Positions 1,971-57,670 of a DNA stretch of 64,000 nt are shown here, piece by piece. The first letter of the stretch is position 1, and each line of letters starts with the position of its first letter. This stretch comes from Azolla caroliniana (lineage: Eukaryota; Plantae; Polypodiophyta), in contig JBHGNT010000004.1 in the NCBI GenBank assembly GCA_043228905.1, positions 3,906,001-3,970,000 of the forward strand, read 5' to 3'. Position numbers and translations under genes: made by a program. The notes beneath the pieces are model-generated. The model did no database searches. It saw only the letters and a list, made by a program, of their open reading frames with translations, and had not been told where the DNA came from.

Positions 1971-2140
1971 GGCCCCCAAGGAAATGTGGGTAGGAAGAGT
2001 GAGAGTGAGAGAGAGAGAGAGAGGTACACACATAACTCAACATAGAGAGAATTGTTTAGACTAGCTTAGTTCATCAACAACTCATAGGTTGTTGTGGTTG
2101 TGGTTTTGTGTCTTGTGTGAGAGAGCGGTTTAACCAAGAG

Positions 2141-3172
2141 ATGAATCTCGGAACCTTAGTTTTGGTTTGTGCCTTAATGGTGCTAGACTTGGCATTCAGC
2201 TCGAGCATCGCCCCGTTGCACATCGTGGAGTACTCGAGTAGCCATTCGTACAACGAAGAGTTGTCTCTCGTCCCGACCCCGACCATCGAATTGTCCTACC
2301 ACATGGGGCCCCTCCTCACCTCCCCGGAGAAATCCCCCCTCAACTTCCATTTCCTTTGGGTCGGCTCCTTCTCGCCCGCCCAAAAGCAAATCCTCATCGA
2401 CTTCGCGTCCTCCTTCGAGCCCATCAACACCCACAATGAAGCACAAATCCCTTCGGTTTCATCGTGGTGGTCTACCGCCACATTGTACACGGATCGGACC
2501 AATGCACATGTCTCCTCCTCCCTCTCATTCTCTTCCCAATCCTCCCTTCAGCTCACACTTGGCACACCCCCCTCTAATCTCCTCACCAAAGACCACCTCC
2601 TCTCTCTCCTCACCTCCTCACTCTCATCCCGTGCACTTCCGGTCGACACCTCGGGCCTCTACTTCATATTCACCGACCCGAGCATCCCGGTCGAGGACTT
2701 CTGCCTTAGCTCGTGCGGGTTCCACGATTTTACACCCGCCTCCCCGGCCACAGGGAACCAAAAGCTGCCCTACGCATGGGTCGGCAACCCGAGCACCCAA
2801 TGCCCAGGTGTGTGCGCGTGGCCGTTCGCGGCCCCGCAGTTCGGGCCCCAAGGCTTCGTGCCTTTGGGCCCGCCCAATGGGGACGTGGGCATGGACGGCA
2901 TGGTCATCAATATGGCCACCCTCCTCGCGGGTATGGCCACGAATCCGTTTCACACTGGGTACTTCGAGGGCGAGTCCGGGTTGCCATCGGAGGCGGTTTC
3001 AGTTTGCACGGGTATTTTCGGAGAAGGGGCGTATCCCGGGAACCCGGGATCTCTTTTGAAGCAACAAGACACCGGGGCTTCCTTCAATGCACAAGGTGTG
3101 AATGGACGCCATTACCTTCTCCCTGCCATATGGAGCCCTTCCACTAACACTTGTTTGCCTCCTAACCCCTAG
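2141..3172 (+). CDS. EXL: EXORDIUM/PHI-1 (phosphate-induced protein 1) family secreted protein, intronless, about 343 aa
   Basis: Signal peptide (MNLGTLVLVCALMV...) and Phi_1 motifs LSYHMGPLL, PSVSSWW, FCLSSCGFH, YAWVGNPSTQCPGVCAWPF, PPNGDVGMDGM, ATNPF, GAYPG, GASFNAQGVNGRHYLLPAIW. Confidence 0.95.
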   Translation: MNLGTLVLVCALMVLDLAFSSSIAPLHIVEYSSSHSYNEELSLVPTPTIELSYHMGPLLTSPEKSPLNFHFLWVGSFSPAQKQILIDFASSFEPINTHNEAQIPSVSSWWSTATLYTDRTNAHVSSSLSFSSQSSLQLTLGTPPSNLLTKDHLLSLLTSSLSSRALPVDTSGLYFIFTDPSIPVEDFCLSSCGFHDFTPASPATGNQKLPYAWVGNPSTQCPGVCAWPFAAPQFGPQGFVPLGPPNGDVGMDGMVINMATLLAGMATNPFHTGYFEGESGLPSEAVSVCTGIFGEGAYPGNPGSLLKQQDTGASFNAQGVNGRHYLLPAIWSPSTNTCLPPNP

Positions 3173-11405: not shown

Positions 11406-11862
11406 CCTACTATACAATGCTATTTTTGTACATATTGATTTCCTCGACTAGGGTTTCCCCATAGCAGGGATAATAATAATAATAACCTATTTTTTAAATT
11501 TTGATTTGCAGTTTTAGGGTTTGATTTGAAGCTGTCAATCGATCGTAGATGTACATAGAAAAGAAAAGAGAAGAGGAGAAAGATAACAGGTTTTTTGAAA
11601 TCAGGAATATATCTGCAATCTGTACATAGTAGGGTTTTGGACAGTTCCAATCCGCATATATATATATACATAGGTGAAGGATTCTTGAAGAACCAATCAG
11701 GATTATTTGGAAAGTACAAGCGGGATTTTGTTCGCTTCTGTTTCATCTAGATTCTTTGAGAGCAGTATTAACGAGATTTTTGGTATATTGATCAAATTTC
11801 TCGGCCGTAAAGATATTGCCCTGACATTCTATCTAAATATTCGATTAAGGGATAATCAATCG

Positions 11863-13041
11863 ATGATGGCTGCCCAACAGAAGATGTCTGGTGTGCGGAA
11901 GCGATCAAAACGACCTCATGGATGTGAATCGGTGACAGAGATCCTGGCATGGTGGGCTGAGCAAAACCAAATCAAATCAGTAACCAATGAACTCGAACCA
12001 CAAGATCAAGAGCGAGGCCAATGCTCACTAGCAGAGAAGGATACCATCATAACTAGAAGAGTACCTGCCAGAGGATCGAAGAAAGGCTGTATGAAAGGGA
12101 AAGGAGGACCAGAGAATGCACATTGCAAATATAGAGGAGTAAGGCAGAGGGTATGGGGGAAATGGGTATCAGAGATAAGAGAGCCGAATCGAGGCGAGAG
12201 ATTGTGGTTAGGTACATTTGCCACAGCACGAGAAGCCGCATTAGCATATGATCAAGCCGCAAGAATACTGTATGGTTCGTGTGCTCGCCTCAATCTCCCC
12301 GAGGTCACTGATTGCCAAATTCTAAAGATCTGTTCTCGATCATCAAGTATTATGAAAGGATCAATCAATCTGGATGCCAATGTATGTTCTGATGCCGATG
12401 TGAAGAGCCATGATTTGGGTTCTTTTAGCTGTACAAGCCCTCATGAGGTATCGGATAAGTCCTCGCCAGGTGTATCTTGTTTGAGCAGTTGCAAAGATGA
12501 TTCAGATGTTAAGTATGATATGGAATCATTTAACCCCATTAATTCTCCCCAAGGTCTCAGCAACCTTTTCAGTGATTCGGTTAATAATGTGGACAATGTG
12601 CTGGAATTCGTCGACAATTTGCCAGAATTAAGAGGAGAGTTGGCATTCGAGCCAGTTATCGAAGATTTGCAAGAATCTGATTATAATTTAGTTGCCAATG
12701 AAATAGTGAAGCTCTTGGAAGATACAAAAAACCCTTATAACTTTGAGATTGAAGGCTCTACTTGTTTACCCTCTTCCATGCAAACAAAGGGCTCTTATAA
12801 TAGCTTTGACAATAATTTAGAGGCATTTTGGGTCCATTCAGACCATCAAGGGGGCAATAACTTTATCTCATCCTCCCAGTATTTTATAAACCCTAAAGAG
12901 ACGAATATCGTTTCAGGCTCATCTCAATATGATGATTTGAATAGCCCAATCATATCAGGTCAAAAATGTGATCAAGGTTCTATGCAAACTTGTATTGGAG
13001 GAGAGAATTCCATACACAACCTCACCTACAATCATATGTGA
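11863..13041 (+). CDS. DREB2: DREB2-type AP2/ERF transcription factor (subgroup A-2)
   Basis: CMIV-2-like [24 protein letters not shown]-1 [20 protein letters not shown]2 domain [19 protein letters not shown]...WLGTF...[17 protein letters not shown] with V14/E19, and an acidic C-terminus. The start codon is inferred and an upstream exon cannot be excluded. Confidence 0.92.
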
Positions 13042-16317: not shown

Positions 16318-19304
16318 TTATTCTTTGTCACAACCAAAGACTCGTTTCCTAAATAAGTCCTCCACTTTTTGTAGAGTAATAGGCTTCCTACCACCTCGAG
16401 GTCGAGAACAGAACTTCTGATCTGCCTCCAAAAAGTCACCCTAATAACAGAGCAAAAGATTTATAGTATAAATTTCTTTTCAAAAGACACAATTGAAAAC
16501 CACATAATATTATCAATGAAATGTCTTTTGTAGTTACCTCACTGTAACAGTGTTTACAAGACTTTTCATGGTTATCTCTGGTATGCCTATAGCCAAATGC
16601 TTCACAACAATCTTCAACAGTACATCGGTAATCTTTTTTACCCATATGACAAACTCGGATGTGCACTGCCAGATTTGAGCTCTGATTGGAAACAGATTGA
16701 GAACACATTGTTTTAGAGAGATCAATAGTTTGTAATTATGATTATAATGACAGAATAAGAACCTTACATTTGCATAGCTGCGAGTACATCCATCGTAAGG
16801 GCAAAATAGTCTTGGCTTAGTTTCATTGTCATCATGTGACATGAGATGCCGTTTATAACTCTTTCTCGACACAGAAGAGCCACAAATGTTACAGCCAAGA
16901 TTAGCATGGGAAGTCCGGGTATGTTCATAAAGAGCCTCTGCATTGGGAAATTTCATTCCACATCCTTCAATACAACAAAAGATATCTGCATATTGATAGC
17001 CTGGTTCCAAAACATAAAACACTTAGGTAAGTCATGATGCTAAAACAATTTGAGCATTGATATAAAGTACAGTATCTCAGCAAAGGTATAGAAATACAAT
17101 TAGTAACAACTGATCTTACCATGCTTTAACTCAAAGTGGTATTGTAGTCTGCAGGGGTAGTCAAAGGTCTTATCACAACCTTGTTCAGGGCATTTCAAGG
17201 AATTCATTTGTTTCTGCAGGACACTGCGCTGAAGATGATCACCTTTCAAGTCATGACTTCTGAGGTGTCTAAGCAAATTTGCCTTATTGGAGCATATCAT
17301 TATACATCCTGGTCTAGGGCAAAGGTGTCCAGATGATTTTTCGTGACAAAGAAGATGTCGATTGAGATGGTCCTGTCGCTTGTAAGACTTCCCACAGCCA
17401 TCTTTCGGACAATGGAAAGCCCTCTGCAAGCAAGAAAAAACATAGTTCCAACTATTTGTAAATAGTTCTCACTGTTGTTTTGTCCAGTGGGCCATAAAAC
17501 ATAGAAGCTTTCTCCATTGCAATTAGTTTCATCATCATCTGACCTTTTAATATGAATCCAAAACAAAGCCATGTGTGACCAGGACTTCCAGAGAGGTCAC
17601 CCTTCTCAGTACTAATCTGGTGCACCATATGTAACTGCTCAACATGCAAAAGCTTAATATATAGTATTCTAAAGTAATCTGTTTGATTGCAATTCTATAG
17701 CTCCCAAAGAATACCTCATCAGTGTGTGTAGCTAAATGTTGCCTCATATGAGATGCTTTCTTGGTTTCAAATCCACACTGATTACACTCGAGAAGTCCTT
17801 TATGATTTATTGCTCCTAGCTGTGGAGATGATGTTGGATGATTGCCCTCAAAGTTAGATTTACAGTGACGGTGTTCACATTCTTCCTCATTTGCTTGAGG
17901 CGGAGATGAAGAACACGATTCTCCCAGATGTTTAGATTTACATTCTTGCTGTTTGAAGAGAAACACAGATTGTAAATAAAGAATAGTAGAACAAGAAAAA
18001 TGGCATTCCTGCATTAGACCTTATCCCCTGAAGAAACAATATGCTGAAATGAGCCACGAAATACCTCATTTGAGTACATTGTATGCTGAATGTTTATTTT
18101 CTCAGCTTCTGATTGACAGAGTTTCTGTTTCTTATTCTCTTGCTGTGGAGATGATGTAGATTTCAACGAGCATTGAGATGCACATACAAACTGCAAGAAT
18201 AGGCCCGGAACATGGACTCGTGAGCAATCCAAAAGTAAAACCGGAAGAATACATGCACTTTCCCATGTCAAAACAAGGACAGTAACACAACAATCTACTG
18301 AGGGAATTTAAAAAAATACCTCATCTATGAGGTCTTTGTTAATGTGTGAAGCCTTCTGAGACTCAGACGCAGAGTGATTACACTGGATAAGGTCTTCCCA
18401 TTTCCTTGTTTCTTGATCCTGAGATGGCGATGTAGATTCTACCTCGCATGCAATCTGCTGAAAAAACTCGCTCTTTAAAATCAAATTCACACCATCAACA
18501 GACAGACATGCCAAAGATTGAACATTAAATAAAATCAAAAGCACAATCACGAAGAACTCATATTACCACGACATCTTCAGAAAGACTTACAATAAGGATC
18601 TTACTATTTCAATGTCTTTTGTATTACAGTCAAAATAAAGGTGGGGAAAGAGGCACAGGGGACAGTATCACATCCATAATTATAGCAAAAGATCCTGTTC
18701 AAACACACATTCTACATTGCAGTAAGAATATGACCGTGGAAACTGAATATTTGAGAGTCATTTCGAACCATAATAGAGAACGACATTCATAGCAAAACCA
18801 ATGCAGATATACCTATCAGGCAGACTGAGGATGAGATCAGTAAAACGTTAGAAAAGAAGTAAAGTATGCAATGGAAACGATCAGATTATCTTCAATTGGA
18901 GAAAACGAAGAAAGATGAAGCGTAGATTCATTATAAGAATCGAAAACGAATAAACCACGTATTCATTTACGATTTTAGAAAAGACCATAGAAAGCCGGCG
19001 CATTAGCTCATTCAAAATTTCAGGAAAAAAAACAGGAAATTCTGCTAATTTACTCGATTCATTCCTTCATTAATTCACCTGCGAGCTTTCGTGAGATTTC
19101 ATGTGGCTTCGCAGAGTAGAAAGCTTGGATCGGAAGCAACCACAAACTTGACACATGTATCGCCGCTTGTCTTTGCCAACGACGCAGAAGCGCGAGGAAT
19201 CCTGCGGATGGCGAAGCAGCATGTGGGACACAATGAGGGACCTCTTCGAGCGCGTCTCGCCGCATACATTGCAGAGGTATTGCCTTGTCTCGGACACAGA
19301 AGAA

Positions 19305-19345
<41 letters not shown>

Positions 19346-19399
19346 GGAAGAAGATGGTGATGATGATGATGATGGAGAGGACGAAGATGAAGAATCCAT
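16318..19399 (-). CDS. TFIIIA: Transcription factor IIIA (C2H2 zinc finger), 8 constitutive exons, about 539 aa
   Basis: Exons by eye, all GT-AG with the frame kept: 19399-19079, 18454-18320, 18190-18065, 17948-17715, 17423-17120, 17000-16768, 16681-16538, 16440-16318. Plant TFIIIA hallmarks: YLCNVCGETRSK, CGKSYKRQDHLNRHLLCH, SNLAVHIRVCH, FGYRHTRDNHEKS.KH, C-terminal GDFLEAD.KF.SRPRGGRK. Confidence 0.92.
17544..17634 (-). ncRNA. 5S rRNA-derived cassette exon / cis-regulatory RNA (P5SM-type) in a TFIIIA intron
   Basis: Minus strand 17621-17578 reads ACCAGATTAGTACTGAGAAGGGTGACCTCTCTGGAAGTCCTGGT, about 34/44 identical to the 3' half of plant 5S rRNA as I recall it. It is flanked by acceptor gcag|TTAC (17635/17634) and candidate donor AAAG|gtcaga (17544/17543), in the intron where P5SM is known. 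Confidence 0.85.
19297..19392 (-). repeat. Coding (TCT/TCA/TCC)n trinucleotide repeat encoding the N-terminal poly-Ser of TFIIIA
   Basis: gaagaagaa/gatgatgat runs on +; MDSSSS... about 30 Ser on -. Confidence 0.9.
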
Positions 19400-22841: not shown

Positions 22842-25026
22842 TGGTATCAGAGTGATTTGGTAGCTCGATCTAGCCCATTCGCCTCATCGTGATCGTGTGT
22901 TGTGCTCCATGCCGACGACCAAGAACCGGCTCATCACTATTGTAGCTTCGCTACATAGCTCGCACTTGAAGAGAGAAGAAGAAGAAGAAGAAGAAGAATC
23001 GACATAATGAATACTCAAATGGGGAGCGCTCTCCCTACCGAGAAGTTGGATCGAAACAACTTCGCATCTTGGGAGTACAAGATGCACCAATACCTTGTCG
23101 GACAAGGCTATTAGAGCTACATCAAAGGAGCGCATGAAGACCGACCCGCCGAAGCGGCTCCCGGATACGCGACATGGGAGCAATCCGCAAGCCGCATGAT
23201 GTATTGTTTGGCGACATGTGTTCATGACCACATGCTCGATTACATTCGAGAAGCCAAGACGCCGAAGGAAGCATGGGAAAATCTACGAAAGATTTTCGCC
23301 GCCAACACGACTGTGAGGAAGCTTAAACTCCGCTAAGAGTTGAACAACATTCAACAAAGGGACATGTCCATCACGACATACACCTTGAAGATCAAGGAGC
23401 TTTGCGACTCGCTCGACTCAATAAGCATAAGTATAGATGATGATGAGATGGTGCAAATATGCCTCGGCGGCCTCGCACCACGGTTCGGCGCGATGTGAAC
23501 CGCCGTTCTAGCACGAGAGAAATCTCCCTTCTTCTTCGAGCTCCAATCAATGCTATTGGTCGAAGAAAACCACGTGCGTACAAGGAGCAATGAGTCGGAA
23601 GGCCACATGCTCTACACGCACTCTAATGGAGGAAGAGGACGCGGACGAGCGAGAGGCCGATTCAGCCAAGGACAAGGCGAACGAGGTCCGACCTACGACA
23701 ACAACTCCCAATTTCGGCCGCAAAACGGAGGCCAACAAGGAACCTTCGCAAGAAGGGGGGGCTTCCACTCCGGCCCGAGCCGTCTAAACGCAACCAAATG
23801 CGGATATTGCGGAAAGCTCGGCCACCACGAAGAAGAGTGCCGAAAGAAGATGCGTGAATCGGCTCCCACAAGCCGACAACTCACGAATTACGCACACAAC
23901 TCCGACTACGAAGATCGTGGCAGAATGTATGCGCACAACTCTGACCGTGGTGAAATGTACGGGCACAACTCCGACTACGAAGATCGTGGCGGAATGTATG
24001 GGCACAACTCCGACCGTGGCGGAATGTTCATGATGAAACATAGAGCAAACTCTATGTTGGCCGCTACCTCAACTAGTGCCCTCAATCCGGAGGACGTATG
24101 GTTTGTAGACTCCGGAGCCTCAAACCATATGACATCCCATAAAGAATGGTTTCTCGAACTTCGAGAGCCGTAGCGACCCGGTTATGTCGAAACCGGAGAT
24201 GACACTACGCACCCGATTCGGCACATCGGCAATGTCCCGTTCGGCGAAAGAGGTAAGCAAACATACATTAAAAATGTCTTGCATGTTCCCACCATCACGA
24301 AGAATTTGGTCTCGGTCGGCCAAATGGTTGAGTAAGGGATGCAAGTACGATTCGATCAAGAAGGGTGCATCATCGAAAAAGAAGGCCGAATCATCGCACG
24401 TGGAAGAAGAGAGGGCCAGATGTTCATTCTCGATTCGCACGAGATGAAATCCGCCATGTTCGCGAAAAGCACGAAAGCCGACTCCAACATAGAGCTATGG
24501 CATAAGCGAATCGGGCACATCAATCTCAACAAACTCAAAGCAATGAGATCGAAAGGAGTCGTTATCAGACTCTCGACATTCAAAGAGAAGGAGATTGAAG
24601 GTGTATGTGAAGCGTGCCAATTCGGCAAGCAACACCGACACCCATTCCCGAAGGAGCAGAATGTGAGCAAAGGCGTACTCGACGTAATTCATTCCAATGT
24701 ATGGGGTCCGGCCCAGACGTCGACATTCGGCGGATGCCGATATTACGTGCTCTTCATCGACGACTTTTCTAGGCACACTTGGATCTACCCGATGCGGCAA
24801 AAGAGCGAAGTGTTTGGACACTTCCAAAATTTCAAGAATGAAGTTGAGAAAGCCACGGGCCGACATGTACGATGCATTCGATCGGATGGCGGCAAGGAGT
24901 ACTTCTCGGACGATTTCACGACGTATCTCCGAAAGGAAGGAATTCGGTGAGAATTCACTTGCCGACACACTCCGCAACAAAACGGAGTAGCCAAGTGCAA
25001 AAATCGGCACATCCTCAAAGTAGCGT

Positions 25027-25975
25027 TGTCGTGAAGATCCGTCACTACGCGCGGATCATGAGGCGGAACCGCCGGGGTTCTGGACCAGAAGGATTTAGAG
25101 TCGATACAAGCTTTGGCGAGAAAGTACTTAAGATAGATTGGGAAAGAGAGAAGTTGAGATTACACGATCAATTTGATAACAAATTTCTTCCTCTTAATTT
25201 TCATAAAAAAAAACCGTGTTTTTTCTCCTTCCCCTTCTCTCTTTTATAGATGCTCTCATGCATATGATGCATGTGAGGGTACAAGACATGCATAAATTGC
25301 ATGTTTGCCATTTGGCGCTTATGTATTACATGTGGTGCATGATAACCACGTCACTCATTTTAGTTCTCATGTATGAGAATTTACATGTAAAAGTACAATG
25401 ATAGAAATATAATTTTAATTAAATAACATGGCTTAATGGTAAGCCATTTGACTCTTAACTTGGAGGTGCAAGGTTTGAATCCTTACTTGCCCTCCTTGTA
25501 TATGTAAATATGTATATATATTTTTATATTTATTTATCTAGTCGCCGGACGCCGCCGTCGGATCACCGTCGGATCACCGTCGTCGGTCCGGTTTTGGTTG
25601 GCAAAAACCCTTTACGAGTAGCTAGCCCACGTCCACTCTTAGTTCAAGTTACCTTGAACTCTTTATGCTCCACACATAGACACAAAGATAATATCTTTTG
25701 CTCCACCTTATATATGATGAGAGTTGTATTTGTCGTGCCTATGTGGGATATCTCACAATTTTCTCCTTTCCTTTTACAAACTTTATACCCTCATATCTTG
25801 ACATTTAGTTGTTCGTTTCTCGTGTAATAAAGTGCATTCGAAACCTCCATCATTTTGTACTTAGATATTAAATCTATTAAAAAAATTATCTTCACAATTA
25901 TTGTACTACGTGATTCATACTCGATTTCGTACGTTTTATAGGATTTTCACACTATTGCCGAAAATATTCACGACA
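25027..25975 (-). mobile_element. TGTCGTGAA-family non-coding element, copy 1 (949 bp), inserted in the copia integrase
   Basis: Termini TGTCGTGAA/TTCACGACA and TSD GCGT/GCGC. Removing it restores ...[14 protein letters not shown]. It is homologous in reverse to 60953-62667. Confidence 0.9.
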
Positions 25976-28500
25976 GCGCGGGCCATGATGAACGAGAAGC
26001 ATATGCCCAAGTCATATTGGGCCGAAGCGGCAAATACGACCGTCTACCTAATGAACCGGTGCACAACATCCGGCGTGCACGAGGTCACTCCGCACGAAAG
26101 ATTCTTCGGAAAGAAGCCGAACCTATCACATGTTCGGATATTCAGCTCCATTACGTACGTGCACATCCCCGACGAGAAGCGTCAAAAGCTCGACCCGAAG
26201 TCGGAGAAATGTATCCTCGTAGGATACTCACTGGAGCAAAAGGGGTACAAGTGCTACAACCCCTCAACTCGAAAATCTCGGGTAAGTCGAGACGTCGTCT
26301 TTGACGAGTCTGCATCCTGGTACGCACCAGAGACAACTTCGACTCCGACCCTGCTCGACCCGGAATCCACCGAACAAGAGATAGAGGACGAAGATCACCT
26401 TACGTGCATGTTCGAAGAAAGTCCGATCACGACCCGATTGAGCGGACCACAAGAGCCTTTGAGCGATCAAAGCACATCACGGCCTAGCTCGAAGATGGAC
26501 AAAGGCAAGGCAAAAATGGTGAAATACGAAGACGATCGCTTCACCAACAATGAGTCAACTCACTCACTCGACAGTGAGTTCGGCGGTTTCGAGGTACCAA
26601 TTGGAGCAAAGAAAGCCCTCATCTCTGCAAATGAAAAGCTCCACCGATCCACTCGTAAAAAGAAGCCTGTAAGCCGATTCGGCTACAACGATTATATGGC
26701 GTACCATTACGCCTTTATGATGAAGGTAGCAACAATACGAGAGCCGGAAACCTTTTCGGAAGCCGCGAAGGACCCGCGATGGATCGCAACAATGAACAAG
26801 GAGATGCAGGCAGTACGGAAGAACGAGACGTGGGATCTTGTTCCCACCTCACCACACAAAAAGGCGATCGGATGCAGATGGATCTACAAAGTGAAGTACA
26901 ATGCGGACGGTTCCGTCAACCGCTACAAAGCTCGACTCGTAGCGAAAGGATACGCTCAGACACATGGTGTCGACTACGAAGAAACCTTTGCCCCGGTGGT
27001 AGAGATGACGACGGTGCAGATCGTAATTGCGATTGCCGTGGCGAAAGGGTGGCACCTCCACCAAATGGACGTCAAGAACGCCTTTCTACAAGGCGAATTA
27101 GAAGAGGAGGTCCACCCGGCTTCAACTCGAGCACCCATCCGAAAGTTGTATGCCGAATCAAGAAGCCACTCTACGGCCTCAAGCAAGCACCACGTGCTTG
27201 GCATTCGAAGATAACGCAATATCTTCATCAAATCGGCTTCCGTATGTCAAAATTAGACAACTCCCTCTACATACGTAGTGATTCTGCAAATCCGATCGTC
27301 ATCATTTTATATGTGGATGACCTAGTCATTGGAGGTGAGCATCTCATCGAAATCAATAAAGTCAAATCCCTCCTTTCCGACAAGTTCGAGATGATGGACA
27401 TGAAGGAGCTCCACTACTTCCTCAGCATCGAGGTAATTTGGACTCCGGTCGGATTCATGATCTCTCAATGGCACTACATCCTCAACTTGTTATACAAGTT
27501 CGGGATGGCTGAGTGCAAATCCGTGGCAACCCCGTTCGATCGTAATCTCAAACTAGATGCGAACTCCGGCACCAAAGCGTGTGAGCCGACTCAATATCAG
27601 CAACTCATCGGGAGTCTCATCTACCTCACGATCACACGACCCGATCTGAGTTATCCGGTCGGTCTCCTTAGCCAATTCATGCAAACACCGCGTGATACTC
27701 ACCTGGATTGCGCTAAGCGAGTTCTACGCTACGTGAGCGGCACAATGGATTGCGACATCCTCTACAAGACCGTGATGCCAATACAACTCAATGGGTACAC
27801 AGACGCCGATTGGGCCGACTACAAAGCTGATAGAAGATCAACCTCTGGATTTGTTTTCTCCCTCGGCAGCGGAGCAATATCCTGGAGTAGCAAGAAGCAG
27901 CCTACCGTTGCTCTTTCGAGTACGGAGGCGGAATACAGGGGTGTAGCCGTAACTGCGTGTGAAGCCGTATGGCTCAAGAGGATTTTGAAGGATCTAGGCG
28001 TACCCATCAAGGATCCGACTTCCCTTTACTGCGACAACATGAGCAATATCTATCTGGCTCGGAACCCGGTGTTCCACCTGCGGACAAAGCACATCGAAGT
28101 GCACTATCACTTCATCCGAGAGCATGTTCTGGCTAGCGATGTCAACCTACAACACATTAGCACCAATCTTCAAACAACCGACATCTTCACTAAAGCCTTA
28201 GGAGCCGACAAGCTATGGCAATTCATGACCGATCTCGGATTGACGATCCCTGACCTGCCAAGCTTGAGGGGGAGTACTAAAGACACTACGCAATAATGCA
28301 TGTATTCCACAACCACGCAATGAAGTAGCGAAGAGTCGATCTACCGCGCAAAGCCGCGAAGAAAGACGCAAGCCGAAGCACAGACTTCGCAACTATGCAC
28401 AACGCAAGCCGGAGCACGGATTCCGCAACTCCGCATAAAGCGAGTCGAAGCGGATTTTGGATACCGTATGAAACCGACCCAACTTGAGCTTGAGAGGTCA

Positions 28501-44737: not shown

Positions 44738-47700
44738 TGTTAATGGGAATAATATTATATTTATTTAGTTGTAACAAACCCTATAAGGCTTTAGTATTTT
44801 CAGTCTCAAGTATTGATCCTAAGCCAAATGTACGCAAGAAACATGGTTATATTGTAATTTGTGGGGAACCCGCCCTTTATTATGTAGGAACAATGGCCAA
44901 TGGGCTTGTAATTTATGAAAGGGACACTTTAGGGTATCCAACTTGTACAAAAGAACAAGAGCTCTAATGCAAAAGATGCCTTTGGGTGACCTAACTTTGG
45001 GCTACCTTTTGGTCCTCATTCTTTCCCATTTACAATCACTAAGAGCCACTTTTCTCCATTTTCTCTTCCCCGTAATTAATGTTGATATACATGTTGTTAT
45101 GAAATCATGCATAACATGAGTCATGCTATACTTATCTTAGTCTTAAACTCTAGTTAACAAGACTTCATAATGTAAATAGTATGCATGCATCCCATCATCT
45201 TGTGGGTCATAAACTCATGTATCTCAATCATTTGATATGATATAGAAAAGAGCATAGCGTATGAGCTCTATCTAGAGATTGTATTGTGATCTTGATTAAT
45301 ATCTAATCACTCTTTGATCTTACTTAATCACTCTATTCTATAACACGTTATCAGCACGATTAGCCTCTATAATTATTCTCTTATATTAATCTACCTTATT
45401 GTTACCATTAGCATGACTTCTCAAGCTCTACAAATAGATAAATGCTTATTCCTGCCAGTTACATTGGATGGGTCCAATTATATGACTTGGATGGTTCATG
45501 TCGAAGGCCATCTCACGACAAAAGATATCCTTCATACGATAAGTGATAATTTTAATGATGTGGAGAACTCAAATGCTAGGAAGAACAAGGCGGAAGCGTT
45601 CATCTTCATCCTTCATCACCTTCAAGCTCTAAGCCTCCAAAAATCTCCATCAAGAATCCATCAACTCTCTAGAAACAACTCAAAGCCCGTTTTCATCATC
45701 AACGAACTGTTCTCGGCCCCAATAATTTGCATGCATGCAATCAAGTTCGCTTTCAAGATTTCAAGACAGTTGTTGAATATAATTCCTCACTATTTGGTAT
45801 CGTTTCTAAACTTAAAATTTGCGGTCATGAAAACCTTGTTCAAGTGGCGAATCTAATCAAAAAAATGTTAAGTACTTTTCATTCCTCAAATTTTAATCTT
45901 GTCATTGAACTTTTATGCAAATTTTAATCTTTTAAAACATATGCTAAACTTTTATTTGTACTTCTTGTCATTGAGTAACACCACCAAGTTCTCCTCAAGA
46001 ATGACAAACTTCATCCAGTTAGTCAACCTGTGGCTCCTTTACAATTCAAGGATTTGTCGCATGTCAAGAGTAGTTATTCTAGACGACAACATCGTCATCA
46101 ACACCCATATGCACAGAATTGAGGAAGAGGAAGAGGAGGAAGAAAGATCAACAAAGGAAACAATATCCTAAAAGTAATCAAGTCAAGCAAATGCATCATC
46201 AATCAAAGTCAAGTCAAGATAAACCTTCATCGAATTCATGTCTTCGATGTGGTTTATGAGGGCATTACTCCAATATCTCCTCGAAGGTCAATAGTGATAT
46301 AATGGATCTTTGGCATGATAGACTAGGTTATCCTAGCCATACAATGATTAGGAGAATTCTCAATAATGTTCAATATCTACCTTTAAAGTTGGAATACTTG
46401 AATCAAGTTAAAACTTGTCTTTGTGTTCCATGTGCACAAGGAAAGTTGGTGATTCGTCCTTTCTTGCACAAGGAACTGTGTGAGTCACCGGAAACTTTTG
46501 GAGCATATACATGGCGATATCCATGGACCAGTACACCCTCCTTTTGGACCATTTTATTAATTCATGGGAGTCAAAGATGCTTCGTTGCGTTTTTCTCACG
46601 TCACACTTCTTTCTACTCGCAACATGGCATTTCCTTGACTCCTCATCCTTATCATCAAGTTGCGTGCTCAATTCCCTGATTTTCCAATTAAGTCGATTCG
46701 GATGGACAATGTTGCCAAGTTTACGTCAACAACCTTTATTCGCTATTGCGAATCTATTAGTATTAATTTTGAAGTTTCAACTCCTCATGTTCACACTCAA
46801 AATGGTATGGCTGAATCTTCGATTAAACAAATCCAAGTAATTGTGCGGTCGATTCTTATCAAATCGAATTTGCCTAGTTCAACATGGGGACATGTAGTAC
46901 TTCATGCAACACAACTTCTCCGACTACGACCGTGATCATATCATATTTACTCTCCCCATCAACCCATGACAAATTTTGTGAATGAATCAGATCCTCAAAC
47001 TATTCAAGAAGCAAAAACATCCCATTTTTGGGATAAGTGGAAAGAAGCTAAATAGTCTTCTCAAACAAGGATTTTTTGGTAAAATTCAAGAAACACCTAT
47101 TGGTACCGGTTATAAGGCAAGGTTTGTTGCTCAAGGTTTTACACAACAATTTGGTATTGATTATAGCGATACATATTCTCAGGTTATAGATGCAACGTAT
47201 TTGTTGGTTTATTCATTTTACTGTTCAACGAAGTCTTCATATGCGTCTCATGGATGTGATTTAGATAAAGATATATACATGAAGATACCTAAAGAACTTT
47301 GCAAATCTATGCAGTTTGGAAAATTTCGCAATCCATCAATCAAGTTATGTAAGTCACTTTATGGACTTAAACAAGTCGGTTGTATGTGGTATCAACATCT
47401 TTCTCAATATCTTCTTCTCATGGATTTAAGAATGATGATATTTGTCCTTGCATATTTATCAAGCATCATCTCAAATAATTTTTCATCCTCGCTATTTATA
47501 TTGATGATCTCAATATTATTGGAACATCCAATGATATTGAAGATGTTGTTGCTATGCTTAGCCGCCAATTTGAAATGAAAGACCTCGATTTAACTATATT
47601 CTGCTTGGGTCTTCAGATCGAGCACCTATCTAATGGAATTCATCTTCATCAGAGCTCTGATATCCATAAAATATTAAAATGGTTTTCTATGTATCAAGCT

Positions 47701-52371: not shown

Positions 52372-55110
52372 CTAATGTGTGTTTCTTGGTTGCATACCAT
52401 ATGCTGTCTTTATATTTGACAGCATAATGCTTGCAGTTATGTCAGTTGATTCAAGCTCGAACACGTGCTTTACTGAATAATGTGCCAGACCTACATGCTC
52501 ATGAAGTTTACATGCCGCTAACAATGTTGACCATACTATAGTAGCAGGTTGAGATGGAATAAAATTTGCTAACTCTACTGTGTAATCTAAACATCCCGCT
52601 CGTCCAAGAAGATCAAAAACACAAGCATAATGCTGGCAGTTCCATGATATACCACATAACTTATTCATTAGGTAAAAGCAATGAAGACCTTCTTGCACCA
52701 AGCCTGCGTTGCTACATGCCGAAAGAGCGCCCACAAGCGTTATTTCATCCCAACTAACATTATTCTTTAGCATTTTTCCTAGAAGTTGAAAGGCCTCCTC
52801 ACCACAACCATGTTGCGCATACCCAGAGAGTATTGTTGTCCAAGTAATTGCATCTGGTCTCATGATGTCATCGAAAGTTCTTTTCGCATGTATTATACTT
52901 CCACATTTCGCATACATGTCCACAAAGATTCCTTTCAAGATGTCATCCCTATCATAACTATCTTCTATCACAAGAATGTGAATCAGCATCCCATGTTCTA
53001 AACCTGCAAGGCCACCGCAAGCCTTAAGCACACATGTGAAACTGATTGTGTCTGCCTTCACACCGTCCATCTCCATTTGCCAAAATGTATGTATTGCTTT
53101 GTCCCAAACTCCATTGTGGACATAACCCGAGATGACCGTGTTGTATGTGACCACATCCTTTTGCTGTATATTGTCAAAAACTTGTGTAACATGATTGAAA
53201 CTTCCACATTTTGAATACATATCAAGAAGACTGTTCCCAACATGTACATCAGAATCCAGACTGAGCTCTATTATTGGTACATGAATTTGCTTTGCATGTT
53301 CCAAATCCAAGGTGTTTCCACATGCTTTTGAAATGGTAGAGAAAGTAACATCACCATGTGCTAGTCCTTCTTGCTTCATTTGATCAAATAGTTGTAATCC
53401 CTCATTTCCTAATTCATTCTGAATATACCCACATATGGCTGATGTCCACACAAACATGGGGCGGTCATGCATTTTGTCAAAGACATGTCTTGCATCAATC
53501 ATGCAGCCACATTTTGCATACATGTCAAGAAGTGTGTTTCCTACTTGTACCTGAGAGAACATGTTAAATTCAATTGCATAAGAATGAATCCACCTACCTT
53601 GCTGTAGGTCACCTAGATTTGTGCAAGCCTTCAATGTGCTTACAAATGTAATTTCATCAGGTGAAACTTCATCCACTTGCATTTTCCAGAATAAATTTAA
53701 AGCTTCTTTATTTTCTCCCATTTCACTGAACCCATCAATTATGGAATTCCATGCAATAACATCCCGCTGAGCCATACTCGTGAAGATATAATTGGCATCC
53801 TCAATCCTGCCACACTTGCAGTACATATCAATAAGTGAACTGCCAAGAAATATATCTGGATCCCAATTGTTCAAAATTATGTCGATATGGATATGATGTC
53901 CCTCTCTCAAAGATGATAATCTTGCACATGCCTTGAGAACACTCATATAAGTGACTTTATTAGGCTTGAAATTGCTAAGTTGCATTTGTTCAAACTGATA
54001 CCAGGCTTCATGTGCTTGGCCATGTAGGACATAAGCAGCAATAATTACCGACCATGAAACAACATCCCGTGCAGACAAATGGTTGAACACATAGATTGCA
54101 TCAGCCAAACTCATGTCTTTAGCATACATATCGATAAGTGTGTTAGCAAGAAAGGTATCTGACTCCATTTTGCTTTGAATAATGATCATATGAACCCTAC
54201 GTCCTTCCTTTGAGGATCCTTGATTGATGCATGCTTTAAGAACATTCAAGCACGTTACTTCATCAGGTTCAACATTCTGAGATTGCATTTGCCAAAAATG
54301 ATAAAAGGCACGATCATGAAGTTCATGTTGTGCATATGCGGCAATCATCGTATTCCATGCCACAATGTGGTGTTTTTGGACTTTGTCAAACAATGCATGA
54401 GCATCATGTATGCTTCCACATTTGCCATACATATCGAGCAGAGCACTTCTAATAAAATCATCGCAATCAAATCCATCATTTACCATTAGAGCATGGATGA
54501 TTTTCACATGGGTCAAACTTGTACATGCCTTAAGAATGCTAAGAAATGTCACATTGTTTGGTTTGACATCATCATGCACCATACGCCAAAACACATTCCA
54601 AGATTGTTTGCTGTGGCCAGATTTAGAATAGGCTCCAATAAGTGATGTCCACGTGAAGACATCTCTGGAATGCATTTTGTGAAACCACCGAGTGGCATTG
54701 GCCAGAGTACCACACTTAACATACATGCTAATGAGCAAGTTTCCAAGTAAAATGCTTGATTCCAATCCATGGTAAACCATGTGAACATTAACTTTCTTTC
54801 CCTTCTCAAGGTCTTTCGTGTTTCCAAACCTCTCCAGAAGACTGCCAATAGCCTCACAGCATGACATGATGCCAAAAGGATGCTCAATATCCTCATATTT
54901 GTAAACCACACTCACTCTATCTTTCTTTCTCTCTCCTGAAGATATTAATATATCTTTCTTTCTTCCTATGACCTCTTCAAGTGCCTGCTGTCCCTCTTGA
55001 GATACAACATTTGACGCCAATTTATTTGATGATAAGGATCCAAATGTCACAAGCTGACTCCCTAATCTCGCAAAGTGGCACAACCAGTTTGTTTCGAAAT
55101 GACCGAGCAT
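52372..55110 (-). CDS. PLS-class pentatricopeptide repeat protein with E domain and no DYW (organellar RNA editing factor type), intronless, about 912 aa
   Basis: About 7 P-L-S triplets (e.g. GNLLISMYVKCG..., RDVFTWTSLIGAY, PNNVTFLSILKAC), then HYACVFDLLGRAG and VWSTLLAACKLH...MLSNI. First ATG at 55110. Confidence 0.95.
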   Translation of the reverse strand: MLGHFETNWLCHFARLGSQLVTFGSLSSNKLASNVVSQEGQQALEEVIGRKKDILISSGERKKDRVSVVYKYEDIEHPFGIMSCCEAIGSLLERFGNTKDLEKGKKVNVHMVYHGLESSILLGNLLISMYVKCGTLANATRWFHKMHSRDVFTWTSLIGAYSKSGHSKQSWNVFWRMVHDDVKPNNVTFLSILKACTSLTHVKIIHALMVNDGFDCDDFIRSALLDMYGKCGSIHDAHALFDKVQKHHIVAWNTMIAAYAQHELHDRAFYHFWQMQSQNVEPDEVTCLNVLKACINQGSSKEGRRVHMIIIQSKMESDTFLANTLIDMYAKDMSLADAIYVFNHLSARDVVSWSVIIAAYVLHGQAHEAWYQFEQMQLSNFKPNKVTYMSVLKACARLSSLREGHHIHIDIILNNWDPDIFLGSSLIDMYCKCGRIEDANYIFTSMAQRDVIAWNSIIDGFSEMGENKEALNLFWKMQVDEVSPDEITFVSTLKACTNLGDLQQGRWIHSYAIEFNMFSQVQVGNTLLDMYAKCGCMIDARHVFDKMHDRPMFVWTSAICGYIQNELGNEGLQLFDQMKQEGLAHGDVTFSTISKACGNTLDLEHAKQIHVPIIELSLDSDVHVGNSLLDMYSKCGSFNHVTQVFDNIQQKDVVTYNTVISGYVHNGVWDKAIHTFWQMEMDGVKADTISFTCVLKACGGLAGLEHGMLIHILVIEDSYDRDDILKGIFVDMYAKCGSIIHAKRTFDDIMRPDAITWTTILSGYAQHGCGEEAFQLLGKMLKNNVSWDEITLVGALSACSNAGLVQEGLHCFYLMNKLCGISWNCQHYACVFDLLGRAGCLDYTVELANFIPSQPATIVWSTLLAACKLHEHVGLAHYSVKHVFELESTDITASIMLSNIKTAYGMQPRNTH

Positions 55111-57670
55111 CCAAATCTTCACAACTCAGACATGATAATAGCTAAAATCACATCTTTTAATTTCGAGGAATACATAACTAGTTTCAGTTGACGACACTCA
55201 CAATGTGATACCCAAATCTTACAACATGGCCATGATAGACCATATCTGTCTTGAATACAGAACATCTGAAGATTCACAATGCCAAACATGGTAGACACTG
55301 AAGTTGGGATAAATCTTTATGTCTCCCCCTTCCCCTTCCATATGTAAATACAATACTTACTTTAGGAAGCTCCCTGTTCATTTCGGGGCAGAACAGACAA
55401 AAGCCCTGTTTTTCCCAGGCATGGATCTCGCCTAGTGACATTGAAACAACTGATTAATATCATCAAAATCCTGATGAAATTAAAAAGACCCATGAGCGAA
55501 TACAAAGAAGAATCAATCCTCAGGATATGAATTGAGAAAACCCCAATGATCAGATTACTCTAAAGCCTTTGGTATGAAGACTTCTGAAACAATAACAATT
55601 GGACTTACTGATGTAAATGATCACATTTGATATGACCTAATGAAATCTTAGGCCTGGCGCTTCATTCATCCCAACACAAGTTCTCTACACGCAACCATGG
55701 AAATGATAGAAAATCATAACTACTCCGCAATGTGATGTGATCGATTGATCGATTGCAACGAGCTCACGATGGTCTCGAAGCAAGGTTTTGTTCCCTATGG
55801 TTATTGGCTTTTCGAACACCTTGCCGAATCGTGTGGTCATAGAAAGCTAAGTTTGCACGCCCTTTGCCATAACTATGGACTTGGGCATGAAAGGGGGGCA
55901 TTTTATTTTCCCACTTCAATTGTCACATGGGATTGGTCAAATGTTGTCACTCGGCAAATTCTATCAACAAAGGAATAAAGGCATGCAAAGTCTACTTACA
56001 GTTTGGAATGATCGACTTGTGGAATCACAACAAATAATTGTGTGAAATCTAAATCAAGGCGTTTCCTCCCAAATAACTTTTCCAAACATAGAACGAAAGA
56101 ATCTTCAGTGTAGAATTGTATAACAACTATGTGATTTTATAGACAAGTCTATTATGGTATGTGATATGGATCACATCTAGATCTTGTAAGGAATTTTCAA
56201 TGACTCGATAAAAAGTACTTGTTTTACACAAATTATGATGAAATTGGTGTCCAACTCTACCTTATAACAAAATGTATGAACGAGTCTCACTTTTGCAAAA
56301 GAGCCGATGCATCTATTTGCAATATTCATTCTAAGGAATTAGTACAATTGCACTTAAAAAGCTCAATCTGCTTAGGAAGAGTTCAAACCTCTTGGCCACA
56401 TATGTGCTAAAAGGAAGCAATCGTGAAAGAGGGGTTGTGTAGAGAGAACTCGATATTTTAAGTGAAGGGAAAGAATCTAAACTTGAGGAAGTGATTACTG
56501 GATCCTACCCACAAAGATCAAAATTGCAAACCAACTCAAACACATATTTCACATTGAACTTGTTGGGCTTTGTCTTATATAATATATGGAGGCTAGATAT
56601 AAAGTTTTGCCAACACAAAATGCATTTGAAGGACAAACAAAGGATGTATCAAATGGATCCAAACCAACAAATTGAGGTAAGAATTTGACAAATCCTTAAA
56701 ATCTAGGTTTAGAAATCAGCCAAACAAGCCATGTGTTCACCCTCATTGTAGTACTTTAGAAAACAAATGATGAATTGTGCATATAGATGGATCATAGAAA
56801 CCTAAAGGTGCCACAATGAGTGTTCTGTTTCCACTAACATATATACACATTGTCGCAAAGACTGTGGTTGTGTGTGCATATTTGTAAAAACCCACTTACA
56901 ATATTAGTTTGCAAAAAGTTATTTGGTAAGACTCAATCGAACTTAGCCGCTCCTTTGTTAGAAGTAAGGCTTATCAAATCAACCACTTCAACTCTTCTTC
57001 TTCTCTATTCATTTAGCTTTCTTTCTCTTTATATTTACAAATTTTATCTTACAAAACTTGTTTACCTAAAGAAATTGTTTTAGGAGGACTCCAACTCATA
57101 ACCTCTACAAAGAGGCATTTGAGATAGATTAATTCAACTTCTTCATTTACTCAATTTACTTTCCTTTCCTTAGTTTTTGTCTTCTTTTCAGCAGGCCATC
57201 ATCTTCTTGAGCGACCTCTGCATCCTTCACCCTTGTGAGCTTCTTCAGTCGCTTTCTGTTTTTCTTCTTTTCTTCCCCCTCTCTACCTTCCTTAGCCACC
57301 ATGGGAATGGCTTTTGTAGGGGGTCAACTGCCTAGCCACTCTCCTTGAGGCGGCCTCATGCATGGGTGGTTGTTTCTTTATTTTTTTATATTTATATTTA
57401 TATTTATAAATTCTATTTTATATTTACATTTGAGAAATTGCAAAATCATCCTCATTTAATTTCGAGCTCCCCTTTTGATATAATTACATTTGTGTCTTGA
57501 GTGATCTTGAAGGTAACATTGATCCTTCCAGAGGTTGTATCTTGGGATTCTGAACTCCGATTCACGGACCGAAAAATCCTACATGCTCCTCGTCACAAGT
57601 TCCAAATGGAAAATTTACTTCTAAAGATTTTTAACATTGTTTCAATATCGTAAAGCCTGATCTCAATTTC

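What the first reader, a model, noticed from the sequence alone, without database searches (positions are those of the whole stretch)
17544..17634. 5S rRNA-derived 'poison' cassette exon in TFIIIA that preserves the helix V/loop E/helix IV arm with compensatory changes
Seen: the intron between ...HLATHTDE and RAFHCPKDGC contains, on the sense strand, ACCAG-ATTAGTA-CTGAGAAGG-GTGA-CCTCTCTG-GAAGTC-CTGGT (17621-17578). Against plant 5S rRNA as I recall it (GCGAGAGTAGTACTAGGATGGGTGACCTCCTGGGAAGTCCTCGT) this is about 34/44 identical. Several differences are compensatory: CGAG/CTCG becomes CCAG/CTGG, and AG/CT becomes GA/TC. The AGUA/GAA loop E motif and the GUGA tetraloop are intact. A cag acceptor at 17635 and an AG|gtcaga donor at 17543 give a 91-nt exon that shifts the frame to a premature stop in the next exon. 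Known: land-plant TFIIIA has an exonised 5S mimic (P5SM) at this position, and its inclusion is controlled by ribosomal protein L5 in angiosperms. Inference: the clearly conserved part here is the loop E arm, which TFIIIA itself contacts in 5S RNA and which overlaps the internal control region in DNA. This may be an ancestral or alternative switch sensing TFIIIA directly rather than only L5.
Basis: partly seen in the sequence, partly recalled or inferred. Interest (0 to 1): 0.85.

Follow-up and report, generated by a model that had tools for sequence, protein, structure and literature searches.

The report
Fern TFIIIA half-5S poison exon
A fern gene for the factor that switches on 5S ribosomal RNA carries a spliced-in, frame-breaking exon copied from 5S RNA, a known plant control switch, but this version lacks the half that the known sensor protein L5 mainly grips, so it is likely read by a different protein, most likely the factor itself.

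Summary
Real and spliced. The 91-nt exon at 17544-17634 (minus strand) lies in a fern TFIIIA gene at the E/R site of the known plant 5S-derived suicide exon. Inclusion joints appear in 7 of 8 runs laid and the skip joint in 3 of 8. Inclusion shifts the frame to a stop at 17316-17314. The exon holds 5S nt 66-109 (helix V, loop E, helix IV; plant-5S model E about 2e-8), with 0 of 67 core differences in two related copies. What is new: helix III/loop C, the main L5 site, is absent here but present in gymnosperm-type, grass-type and moss cassettes. It is therefore a derived truncation, not an ancestral state. Only one double change (81-95) is specific to the element. One gymnosperm-type transcript carries two loop-E arms. 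The sensor is untested: TFIIIA autoregulation about 0.4, L5 through loop E about 0.3. The two founding 2009 papers could not be read and may already show ferns.

The parts
16318..19399 (-). Fern TFIIIA gene; coding exons 19399-19079, 18454-18320, 18190-18065, 17948-17715, 17423-17120, 17000-16768, 16681-16538, 16440-16318; the skip form gives 539 aa with ten C2H2 fingers (three before the cassette, seven after)
   Evidence: joints; translation; groups with Ceratopteris and Adiantum TFIIIA at 100/100
17544..17634 (-). 91-nt cassette (poison) exon between the Glu and Arg codons before the finger-3 exon
   Evidence: inclusion and skip joints; frame shift
17635..17636 (-). Acceptor AG of the cassette, 13 nt before the arm; the seven letters around it match 5S nt 48-54 nearly in register
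   Evidence: the match to nt 47-66 is not significant on its own (385 of 1000 shuffles)
17542..17543 (-). Donor GT of the cassette
17578..17621 (-). 5S gamma arm, 5S nt 66-109: helix V (17621-17615 with 17585-17578, 7 of 7 pairs), loop E (17614-17610 with 17588-17586), helix IV (17609-17605 with 17593-17589, 4 of 5 pairs), apical two pairs and tetraloop (17602-17595)
17570..17631 (-). Predicted exon-internal extension of helix V that closes the arm as a rod rather than a three-way junction
   Evidence: pair probability 0.72-0.80 against 0.02 for the helix-I-like pairing with the intron; prediction only
17314..17316 (-). Premature stop TAG reached when the cassette is included; 194 nt above the next exon joint, three joints downstream
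17689..17705 (-). Possible decayed trace of 5S nt 30-47 (helix III/loop C) in the upstream intron; not intact and not conserved
   Evidence: found after the fact: window 50 of 150 shuffles, L003 10 of 150, L002 1 of 150; a control intron 11 of 150
17424..17543 (-). Downstream intron; covered by contigs in X4, X6, X11 and X15 (partly in X3), so retained or not yet spliced in some molecules
   Evidence: table 8

Best explanation
This is the fern form of the plant 5S-derived suicide exon of TFIIIA, cut down to the helix V/loop E/helix IV arm; it is included in some transcripts and skipped in others, and free TFIIIA likely binds the arm on its own pre-mRNA and would favour inclusion, a predicted negative feedback. 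Shown: the exon, both splice forms, the frame shift and early stop, the intact arm, its conservation, and the absence of helix III/loop C. Inferred from the angiosperm system: the included form is destroyed by nonsense-mediated decay. Inferred and untested: the ligand is TFIIIA, it binds as RNA 13 nt from the acceptor, and binding promotes inclusion. When 5S RNA or 5S genes soak up TFIIIA, the exon would be skipped more often and full-length protein would rise.
For: Both forms exist; stop 194 nt above a joint. Same E/R context as Arabidopsis (PMC3378873). Arm intact, 11 of 12 stem pairs and loop E unchanged. Core 17568-17634 has 0 of 67 differences against 35 of 574 (L002) and 53 of 574 (L003) outside it (Fisher p 0.019 and 0.002; the two comparisons share ancestry). 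A Ceratopteris isoform begins with the same eight-residue read-through of the arm, including the Ser where the two 5S references give Leu or Pro. 5S nt 26-46 has no match in the 291-nt intron (690 of 1000 shuffles) but matches L004 (0 of 1000) and L009 (5 of 1000). L5 binds mainly loop C, and TFIIIA contacts loop A, helix V and loop E (PMC3257258, PMC6164485, PMC4511217). The purine-rich L2 loop on which the angiosperm L5 mechanism depends (PMC3378873) lies in the missing half. Autoregulation of TFIIIA through this exon is reported for Arabidopsis (Fu 2009 as cited in PMC10952736).
Against: No binding or splicing-direction data. Loop A, called the high-affinity TFIIIA site in PMC3257258, is probably not formed: the helix-I-like pairing has probability 0.02. 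L5-controlled cassettes keep loop E as well, so its retention does not name the ligand. L5 binds a viroid through loop E and Rpf2 binds loop E. The loss of helix III/loop C is seen at DNA level only in the window and three close relatives (L001-L003, one of them identical over this intron); the Ceratopteris peptide covers only the 3' half. Conservation extends into the flanking intron (4 of 120 and 2 of 120 differences), so the low rate is not confined to the arm. Contig depths cannot give inclusion levels.
Confidence: 0.42

Rival explanations
1. The switch still senses L5, as in flowering plants, but L5 binds the loop E arm alone; bound 13 nt from the acceptor it would block exon recognition and cause skipping when 5S RNA is short.
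For: Keeps the established logic of the orthologous exon (PMC3355732; PMC3378873). L5 binds a viroid RNA through loop E (PMC6164485). Loop E is kept in every cassette arm compared (5 of 5).
Against: Loop C, the main L5 site, and the L2 enhancer loop are absent. In the viroid, a 5S-type loop E did not replace the native one.
Confidence: 0.28
2. No regulating ligand: the hairpin and splice sites set a fixed share of wasted transcripts, or respond to temperature or general splicing state; the 5S likeness is a slowly decaying relic.
For: Half of the element is gone; the arm is no more stable than shuffles; only one element-specific double change; the flanking intron is conserved too.
Against: The non-canonical loop E letters are kept exactly, which a plain hairpin does not need; the arm's read-through peptide is the same in Ceratopteris, whose TFIIIA is 56% identical in the next exon.
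Confidence: 0.14
3. The reader is another loop E binder of 5S assembly, the Rpf2-Rrs1 complex, so that splicing would follow the state of large-subunit assembly.
For: Rpf2 binds 5S mainly at loop E and helix IV, on a surface that overlaps TFIIIA's (PMC4511217); this is exactly what the exon keeps.
Against: No precedent for splicing control by Rpf2 in the papers seen; nothing here tests it.
Confidence: 0.08
4. The element works as DNA: it keeps part of the 5S internal control region, and TFIIIA bound to the gene would slow transcription and favour inclusion.
For: The kept segment spans 5S nt 48-109, which covers the internal promoter (box positions recalled, not from a call).
Against: The element-specific change at 81-95 is on both sides of an RNA pair, and nt 81 and 84 differ from both 5S references inside the recalled C box; pairing is kept beyond the promoter's end.
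Confidence: 0.08

Closest known systems
Plant 5S rRNA mimic (P5SM) suicide exon of TFIIIA (Hammond et al. 2009; Fu et al. 2009; seen only through PMC3378873, PMC3355732, PMC6164485, PMC8909551, PMC5568362)
   Same: Same gene, same E/R site before finger 3, cassette exon from 5S rRNA, skip form codes full-length TFIIIA, inclusion gives an early stop, loop E/helix IV arm kept.
   Different: No helix III/loop C (P2/L2) and no purine-rich L2 loop; exon 91 nt; the stop comes by frame shift in the next exon, not inside the cassette; no in-frame AUG in the cassette for a seven-finger product, whereas the Ceratopteris isoform P0013 has one; the arm is closer to 5S itself (34-36 of 44).
5S rRNA gamma arm (Rfam RF00001), the part contacted by TFIIIA and Rpf2
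   Same: nt 66-109 in register without indel; loop E and tetraloop identical; 11 of 12 stem pairs.
   Different: 21.8 bits against a gathering score of 38; no beta arm; helix I and loop A probably not formed; lies inside a Pol II transcript.
First arm of the gymnosperm-type cassette L004
   Same: A loop E arm without beta arm, 11 nt after an AG (13 here), same helix V core and U at position 97.
   Different: In L004 a full P5SM follows; the apex is one letter shorter and differs; common origin is not shown.

Membership tests
5S-derived suicide exon of land-plant TFIIIA | Host gene is a TFIIIA ortholog | tested here: met
   tree with named plant TFIIIA proteins, fern clade 100/100; alignment
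5S-derived suicide exon of land-plant TFIIIA | Cassette lies at the E/R site before the finger-3 exon | tested here: met
   Arabidopsis map in PMC3378873 supplement
5S-derived suicide exon of land-plant TFIIIA | Exon is both included and skipped | tested here: met
   upstream joint 7 of 8 runs, downstream 6 of 8, skip 3 of 8
5S-derived suicide exon of land-plant TFIIIA | Inclusion makes a premature stop well above a joint | tested here: met
   stop at 17316-17314, 194 nt above the next joint
5S-derived suicide exon of land-plant TFIIIA | Included form is degraded by nonsense-mediated decay | not testable with these tools
   inferred from the angiosperm case
P5SM in the strict sense | P3c/L3 region homologous to 5S loop E/helix IV | tested here: met
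P5SM in the strict sense | P2/L2 region homologous to 5S helix III/loop C, with the purine-rich L2 loop | tested here: not met
   690 of 1000 shuffles reach the window's score, against 0 and 5 of 1000 for L004 and L009; no match in the whole gene (18 of 200 shuffles); at most a decayed intronic trace
P5SM in the strict sense | Three-way junction closed by a helix-I-like stem | tested here: inconclusive
   covariance models can draw one, but the energy model gives it probability 0.02; no covariation data
P5SM in the strict sense | L5 binding causes skipping | not testable with these tools
   needs binding and reporter assays
P5SM in the strict sense | Match to a curated P5SM model | tested here: inconclusive
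   no family of that name was hit here or in seed-plant loci that hold a P5SM, so the library seems to lack one
Functional 5S rRNA gene | Full length and Rfam gathering score | tested here: not met
   21.8 bits against 38; 47 model positions skipped

The most novel reading that the evidence does not exclude
The vascular-plant TFIIIA cassette is modular: a bare loop E arm beside the acceptor, read by TFIIIA itself and promoting inclusion, and a full P5SM read by L5 and promoting skipping. The gymnosperm-type transcript L004 keeps both, grasses keep only the second, and this fern keeps only the first, so ferns would run a transcription factor that censors its own mRNA through a decoy of its own product, with the ligand of a homologous RNA switch changed between lineages.
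Probability: 0.25. Interest if true: 0.78.

Novelty: new variant of a known kind. Interest (0 to 1): 0.5.

Why it matters
The exon itself is known from moss to flowering plants. A natural version that has lost the L5 half and kept the loop E half is a ready-made deletion mutant. It separates the two explanations reported for this exon, L5 sensing and TFIIIA autoregulation, and makes it testable why the angiosperm element keeps loop E at all. If the ligand differs, it shows a homologous RNA splicing switch changing its sensor in evolution, and gives a 91-nt cassette orthogonal to the L5-driven ones used for transgene control (PMC3378873).

Tried and rejected
No whole genome is held, so paralogs and this species' own 5S gene could not be checked; the window has no 5S gene. 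Fu 2009, Hammond 2009 and Barbazuk 2010 are not held. A homolog search of the finger-3 exon among longer proteins gave nothing; a search with the cassette-derived start of P0013 found only the two Ceratopteris clusters. Viral contigs gave one partial non-plant-type 5S and no fern-type arm. The PDB search hit TFIIIA DNA-binding constructs and other zinc fingers, nothing on RNA contact residues. Folding energy does not set the arm apart (12 of 300 in a looser shuffle, against 9 of 300 for the real 5S arm). The skipped 47 positions in covariance-model alignments are not proof of loss, because grass cassettes that do hold the loop C motif are aligned the same way; the direct motif tests carry the claim. 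The automatic alignment of nine arms was out of register for L004's first arm and was not used; pairs were counted by anchoring on loop E. The first direct identity count (13/44) was off by one position and was redone. snoRNA, miRNA and other Rfam hits over the region are below threshold and treated as chance. Pairing of the acceptor AG in one fold depends on the end of the stretch chosen and on three G-U pairs; not used. Of 41 loci, 23 were scanned for 5S parts; the other 18 were weak or partial matches and were left out. Contig depths were not used as inclusion levels.

Full report
1. The observation. To avoid a recalled reference I fetched 5S genes from genome contigs (39 loci, 38 copies long enough). 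The stretch is 34/44 identical to L047 and 36/44 to L080 (the labels 'angiosperm-type' and 'moss-type' for these two are recalled). The intron scores 53 against their majority sequence; 0 of 2000 shuffles reach that and it is the best of 880 window tiles. A covariance model built from 10 of the copies gives 37.1 bits, E about 2e-8, with the next hit in the window at 14.1 bits. Rfam's general 5S model gives 21.8 bits, under its threshold of 38.

2. The exon is used. Of 16 runs listed, 8 were laid. The joint 17715/17634 is in 7 of 8 (X1, X2, X3, X15, X4, X6, X11; seven study codes), the joint 17544/17423 in 6 of 8, and the skip joint 17715/17423 in 3 of 8 (X1, X15, X11). X12 is flagged as probably DNA and runs unspliced through the region. 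X1 and X15 show nearly the same differences and may be one data set. All are contigs, so levels cannot be read. Skipping gives a 539-aa TFIIIA; inclusion gives 338 aa, ending at TAG 17316-17314, 194 nt above the next joint. The cassette sits between Glu and Arg, the context of the Arabidopsis cassette (PMC3378873). The protein groups with Ceratopteris and Adiantum at 100/100 in a tree of 18 rows, so the window is from a fern; its place among ferns is open.

3. What part of 5S is kept. Anchored on loop E, the exon holds nt 66-109 without indel: helix V 7 of 7 pairs, loop E unchanged, helix IV 4 of 5, tetraloop unchanged. Against L047, pairs 68-107, 80-96 and 81-95 change on both sides; L080 already has the first two in the window's state, and a 5S-like contig in X12 has the same helix V core. 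So one double change, 81-95, is the element's own, and pair 79-97 is lost. The core 17568-17634 has 0 of 67 differences in both L002 and L003, against 35 and 53 of 574 positions outside (p 0.019 and 0.002, not independent; the downstream intron is also low, 4 and 2 of 120). In the four runs the difference table lists no change in the core. Deeper: Ceratopteris P0013 starts with the same eight residues that the window's arm encodes, with Ser where the 5S references give Leu or Pro, and reaches finger 3 after about the same distance.

4. What is missing. 5S nt 26-46 (helix III/loop C) finds no match in the 291-nt intron (690 of 1000 shuffles) or in the gene (18 of 200), but does in L004 (0 of 1000) and L009 (5 of 1000). 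Of 23 loci scanned out of 41 found, 10 show the arm: the 3 fern loci lack the motif and the 7 seed-plant-type loci (L004, L008, L009, L013, L014, L022, L026, the last cut by its contig end) have it. Lineage labels for these loci come from likeness of the next exon to named Taxus, Sorghum and Miscanthus proteins. The Arabidopsis cassette has both parts by eye (supplement of PMC3378873), and the paper names L2/P2 and P3c/L3 as the regions homologous to 5S. Read-through peptides show nt 27-77 in the Physcomitrium cluster (P0160, 0 of 500 shuffles) and nt 30-101 in Taxus (P0081, 2 of 500). With moss and seed plants both keeping the beta arm, its absence here is a loss. Against a clean loss: 17705-17689 in the upstream intron resembles nt 30-47 weakly (window 50 of 150 shuffles, L003 10, L002 1; a control intron 11). 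It was found after the fact and differs among the three copies, so at most it is a decaying trace, but it would favour a decayed ordinary P5SM over the two-module reading. The helix-I-like pairing drawn by the covariance models has probability 0.02; an exon-internal extension of helix V has 0.72-0.80, so loop A is probably absent too.

5. A second clue. L004, a spliced gymnosperm-type transcript, has a bare loop E arm 11 nt after an AG and then a full P5SM. The first arm keeps 11 of 12 pairs and folds better than 300 of 300 shuffles. It shares the helix V core and U97 with the fern arm, while the three P5SM arms compared have C79-G97. No such arm lies upstream of the motif in 5 of 5 grass-type loci checked. 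This is one sequence; an independent duplication is as possible as a shared origin.

6. Mechanism. Shown: alternative splicing, frame shift, intact and conserved gamma arm, missing beta arm. From the literature: in flowering plants L5 binds the element and would displace an exon-defining factor from the purine-rich L2 loop (PMC3378873); L5 binds 5S mainly at loop C, TFIIIA at loop A, helix V and loop E (PMC3257258; PMC6164485; PMC4511217). That mechanism cannot run unchanged without L2. The reading I back (0.42) is that free TFIIIA binds the arm and favours inclusion and decay, which is negative feedback. Rivals: L5 through loop E alone (0.28; L5 binds a viroid through loop E), no ligand (0.14), Rpf2-Rrs1 (0.08), action as DNA (0.08). 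No call tests ligand or direction.

7. Comparison with what is known. The exon is a member of the land-plant 5S-derived suicide exons (4 of 4 testable features met), described from moss to flowering plants (PMC3355732; PMC8909551; PMC5568362; PMC13485355). It is not a P5SM in the strict sense, because P2/L2 was tested and not met. Nine literature searches showed no description of a fern form without the beta arm or of a doubled arm, but the library lacks Fu 2009, Hammond 2009 and Barbazuk 2010, whose figures and supplements may show them. What I saw of papers: PMC3378873 parts 1, 3 and 4 of 5 and part 1 of 6 of its supplement (figures not held); matched passages only of PMC6164485, PMC3355732, PMC10952736, PMC3257258, PMC4511217, PMC8909551, PMC13485355 and PMC5568362; search listings for the rest. 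The scan's own notes had no match by words or sequence; the two fungal TFIIIA intron notes listed did not bear on this reading.

8. Verdict. A real, expressed poison exon and a new variant of a known kind. Interest 0.5.

Noticed in passing
L004:322-547: A gymnosperm-type spliced TFIIIA transcript holds two 5S arms in tandem: a bare loop E arm (about 342-389; 11 of 12 pairs; plant-5S model 18.4 bits, E about 0.003) and then a full P5SM (39.3 bits). It runs into the finger-3 exon through a pyrimidine-rich stretch ending in AG, which looks like an alternative acceptor rather than a cassette. One sequence only.
   Followed up: partly
window 17715-18454: Three in-frame exons are decayed duplicates of the finger-2 exon (0-1 of 500 shuffles); only the last keeps a whole finger. 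Ferns have extra N-terminal fingers: three here and in Ceratopteris, more in Adiantum P0165.
   Followed up: partly
L010, L016, L017, L018: TFIIIA-like loci whose finger-3 region is preceded by an acidic stretch without an intron, an upstream finger or any clear 5S trace: possibly seven-finger genes without the cassette.
   Followed up: no
P0013 (Ceratopteris), P0081 (Taxus), P0160 (Physcomitrium cluster), P0181 (Colocasia): Database proteins whose N-termini are read-throughs of the 5S-derived exon; they record which part of 5S each lineage keeps and are candidate seven-finger forms.
   Followed up: yes
window 17664-17714: The upstream donor can pair over 7 bp with a stretch 44 nt into the intron in the window's predicted fold, but not in the folds of L002 and L003; may be chance.
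   Followed up: partly
window 17576-17611, run X12: A 108-nt contig lays on the arm with 6 differences and continues in 5S-like sequence that has the same helix V core in register: probably a 5S copy of this plant group, which suggests that this core is the local 5S state.
   Followed up: partly
L043-L081: Most of 39 matches in bacterial genome records are plant-type 5S rRNA genes on very short contigs, likely contamination.
   Followed up: no
window 2060-3172, 11689-13041, 23499-28296, 45344-47578, 52372-55125: Neighbours recognised from their open frames (names recalled, not searched): an EXORDIUM-like gene, a DREB2-like AP2 gene, copia-type retroelement remains and a PLS-class PPR gene.
   Followed up: no
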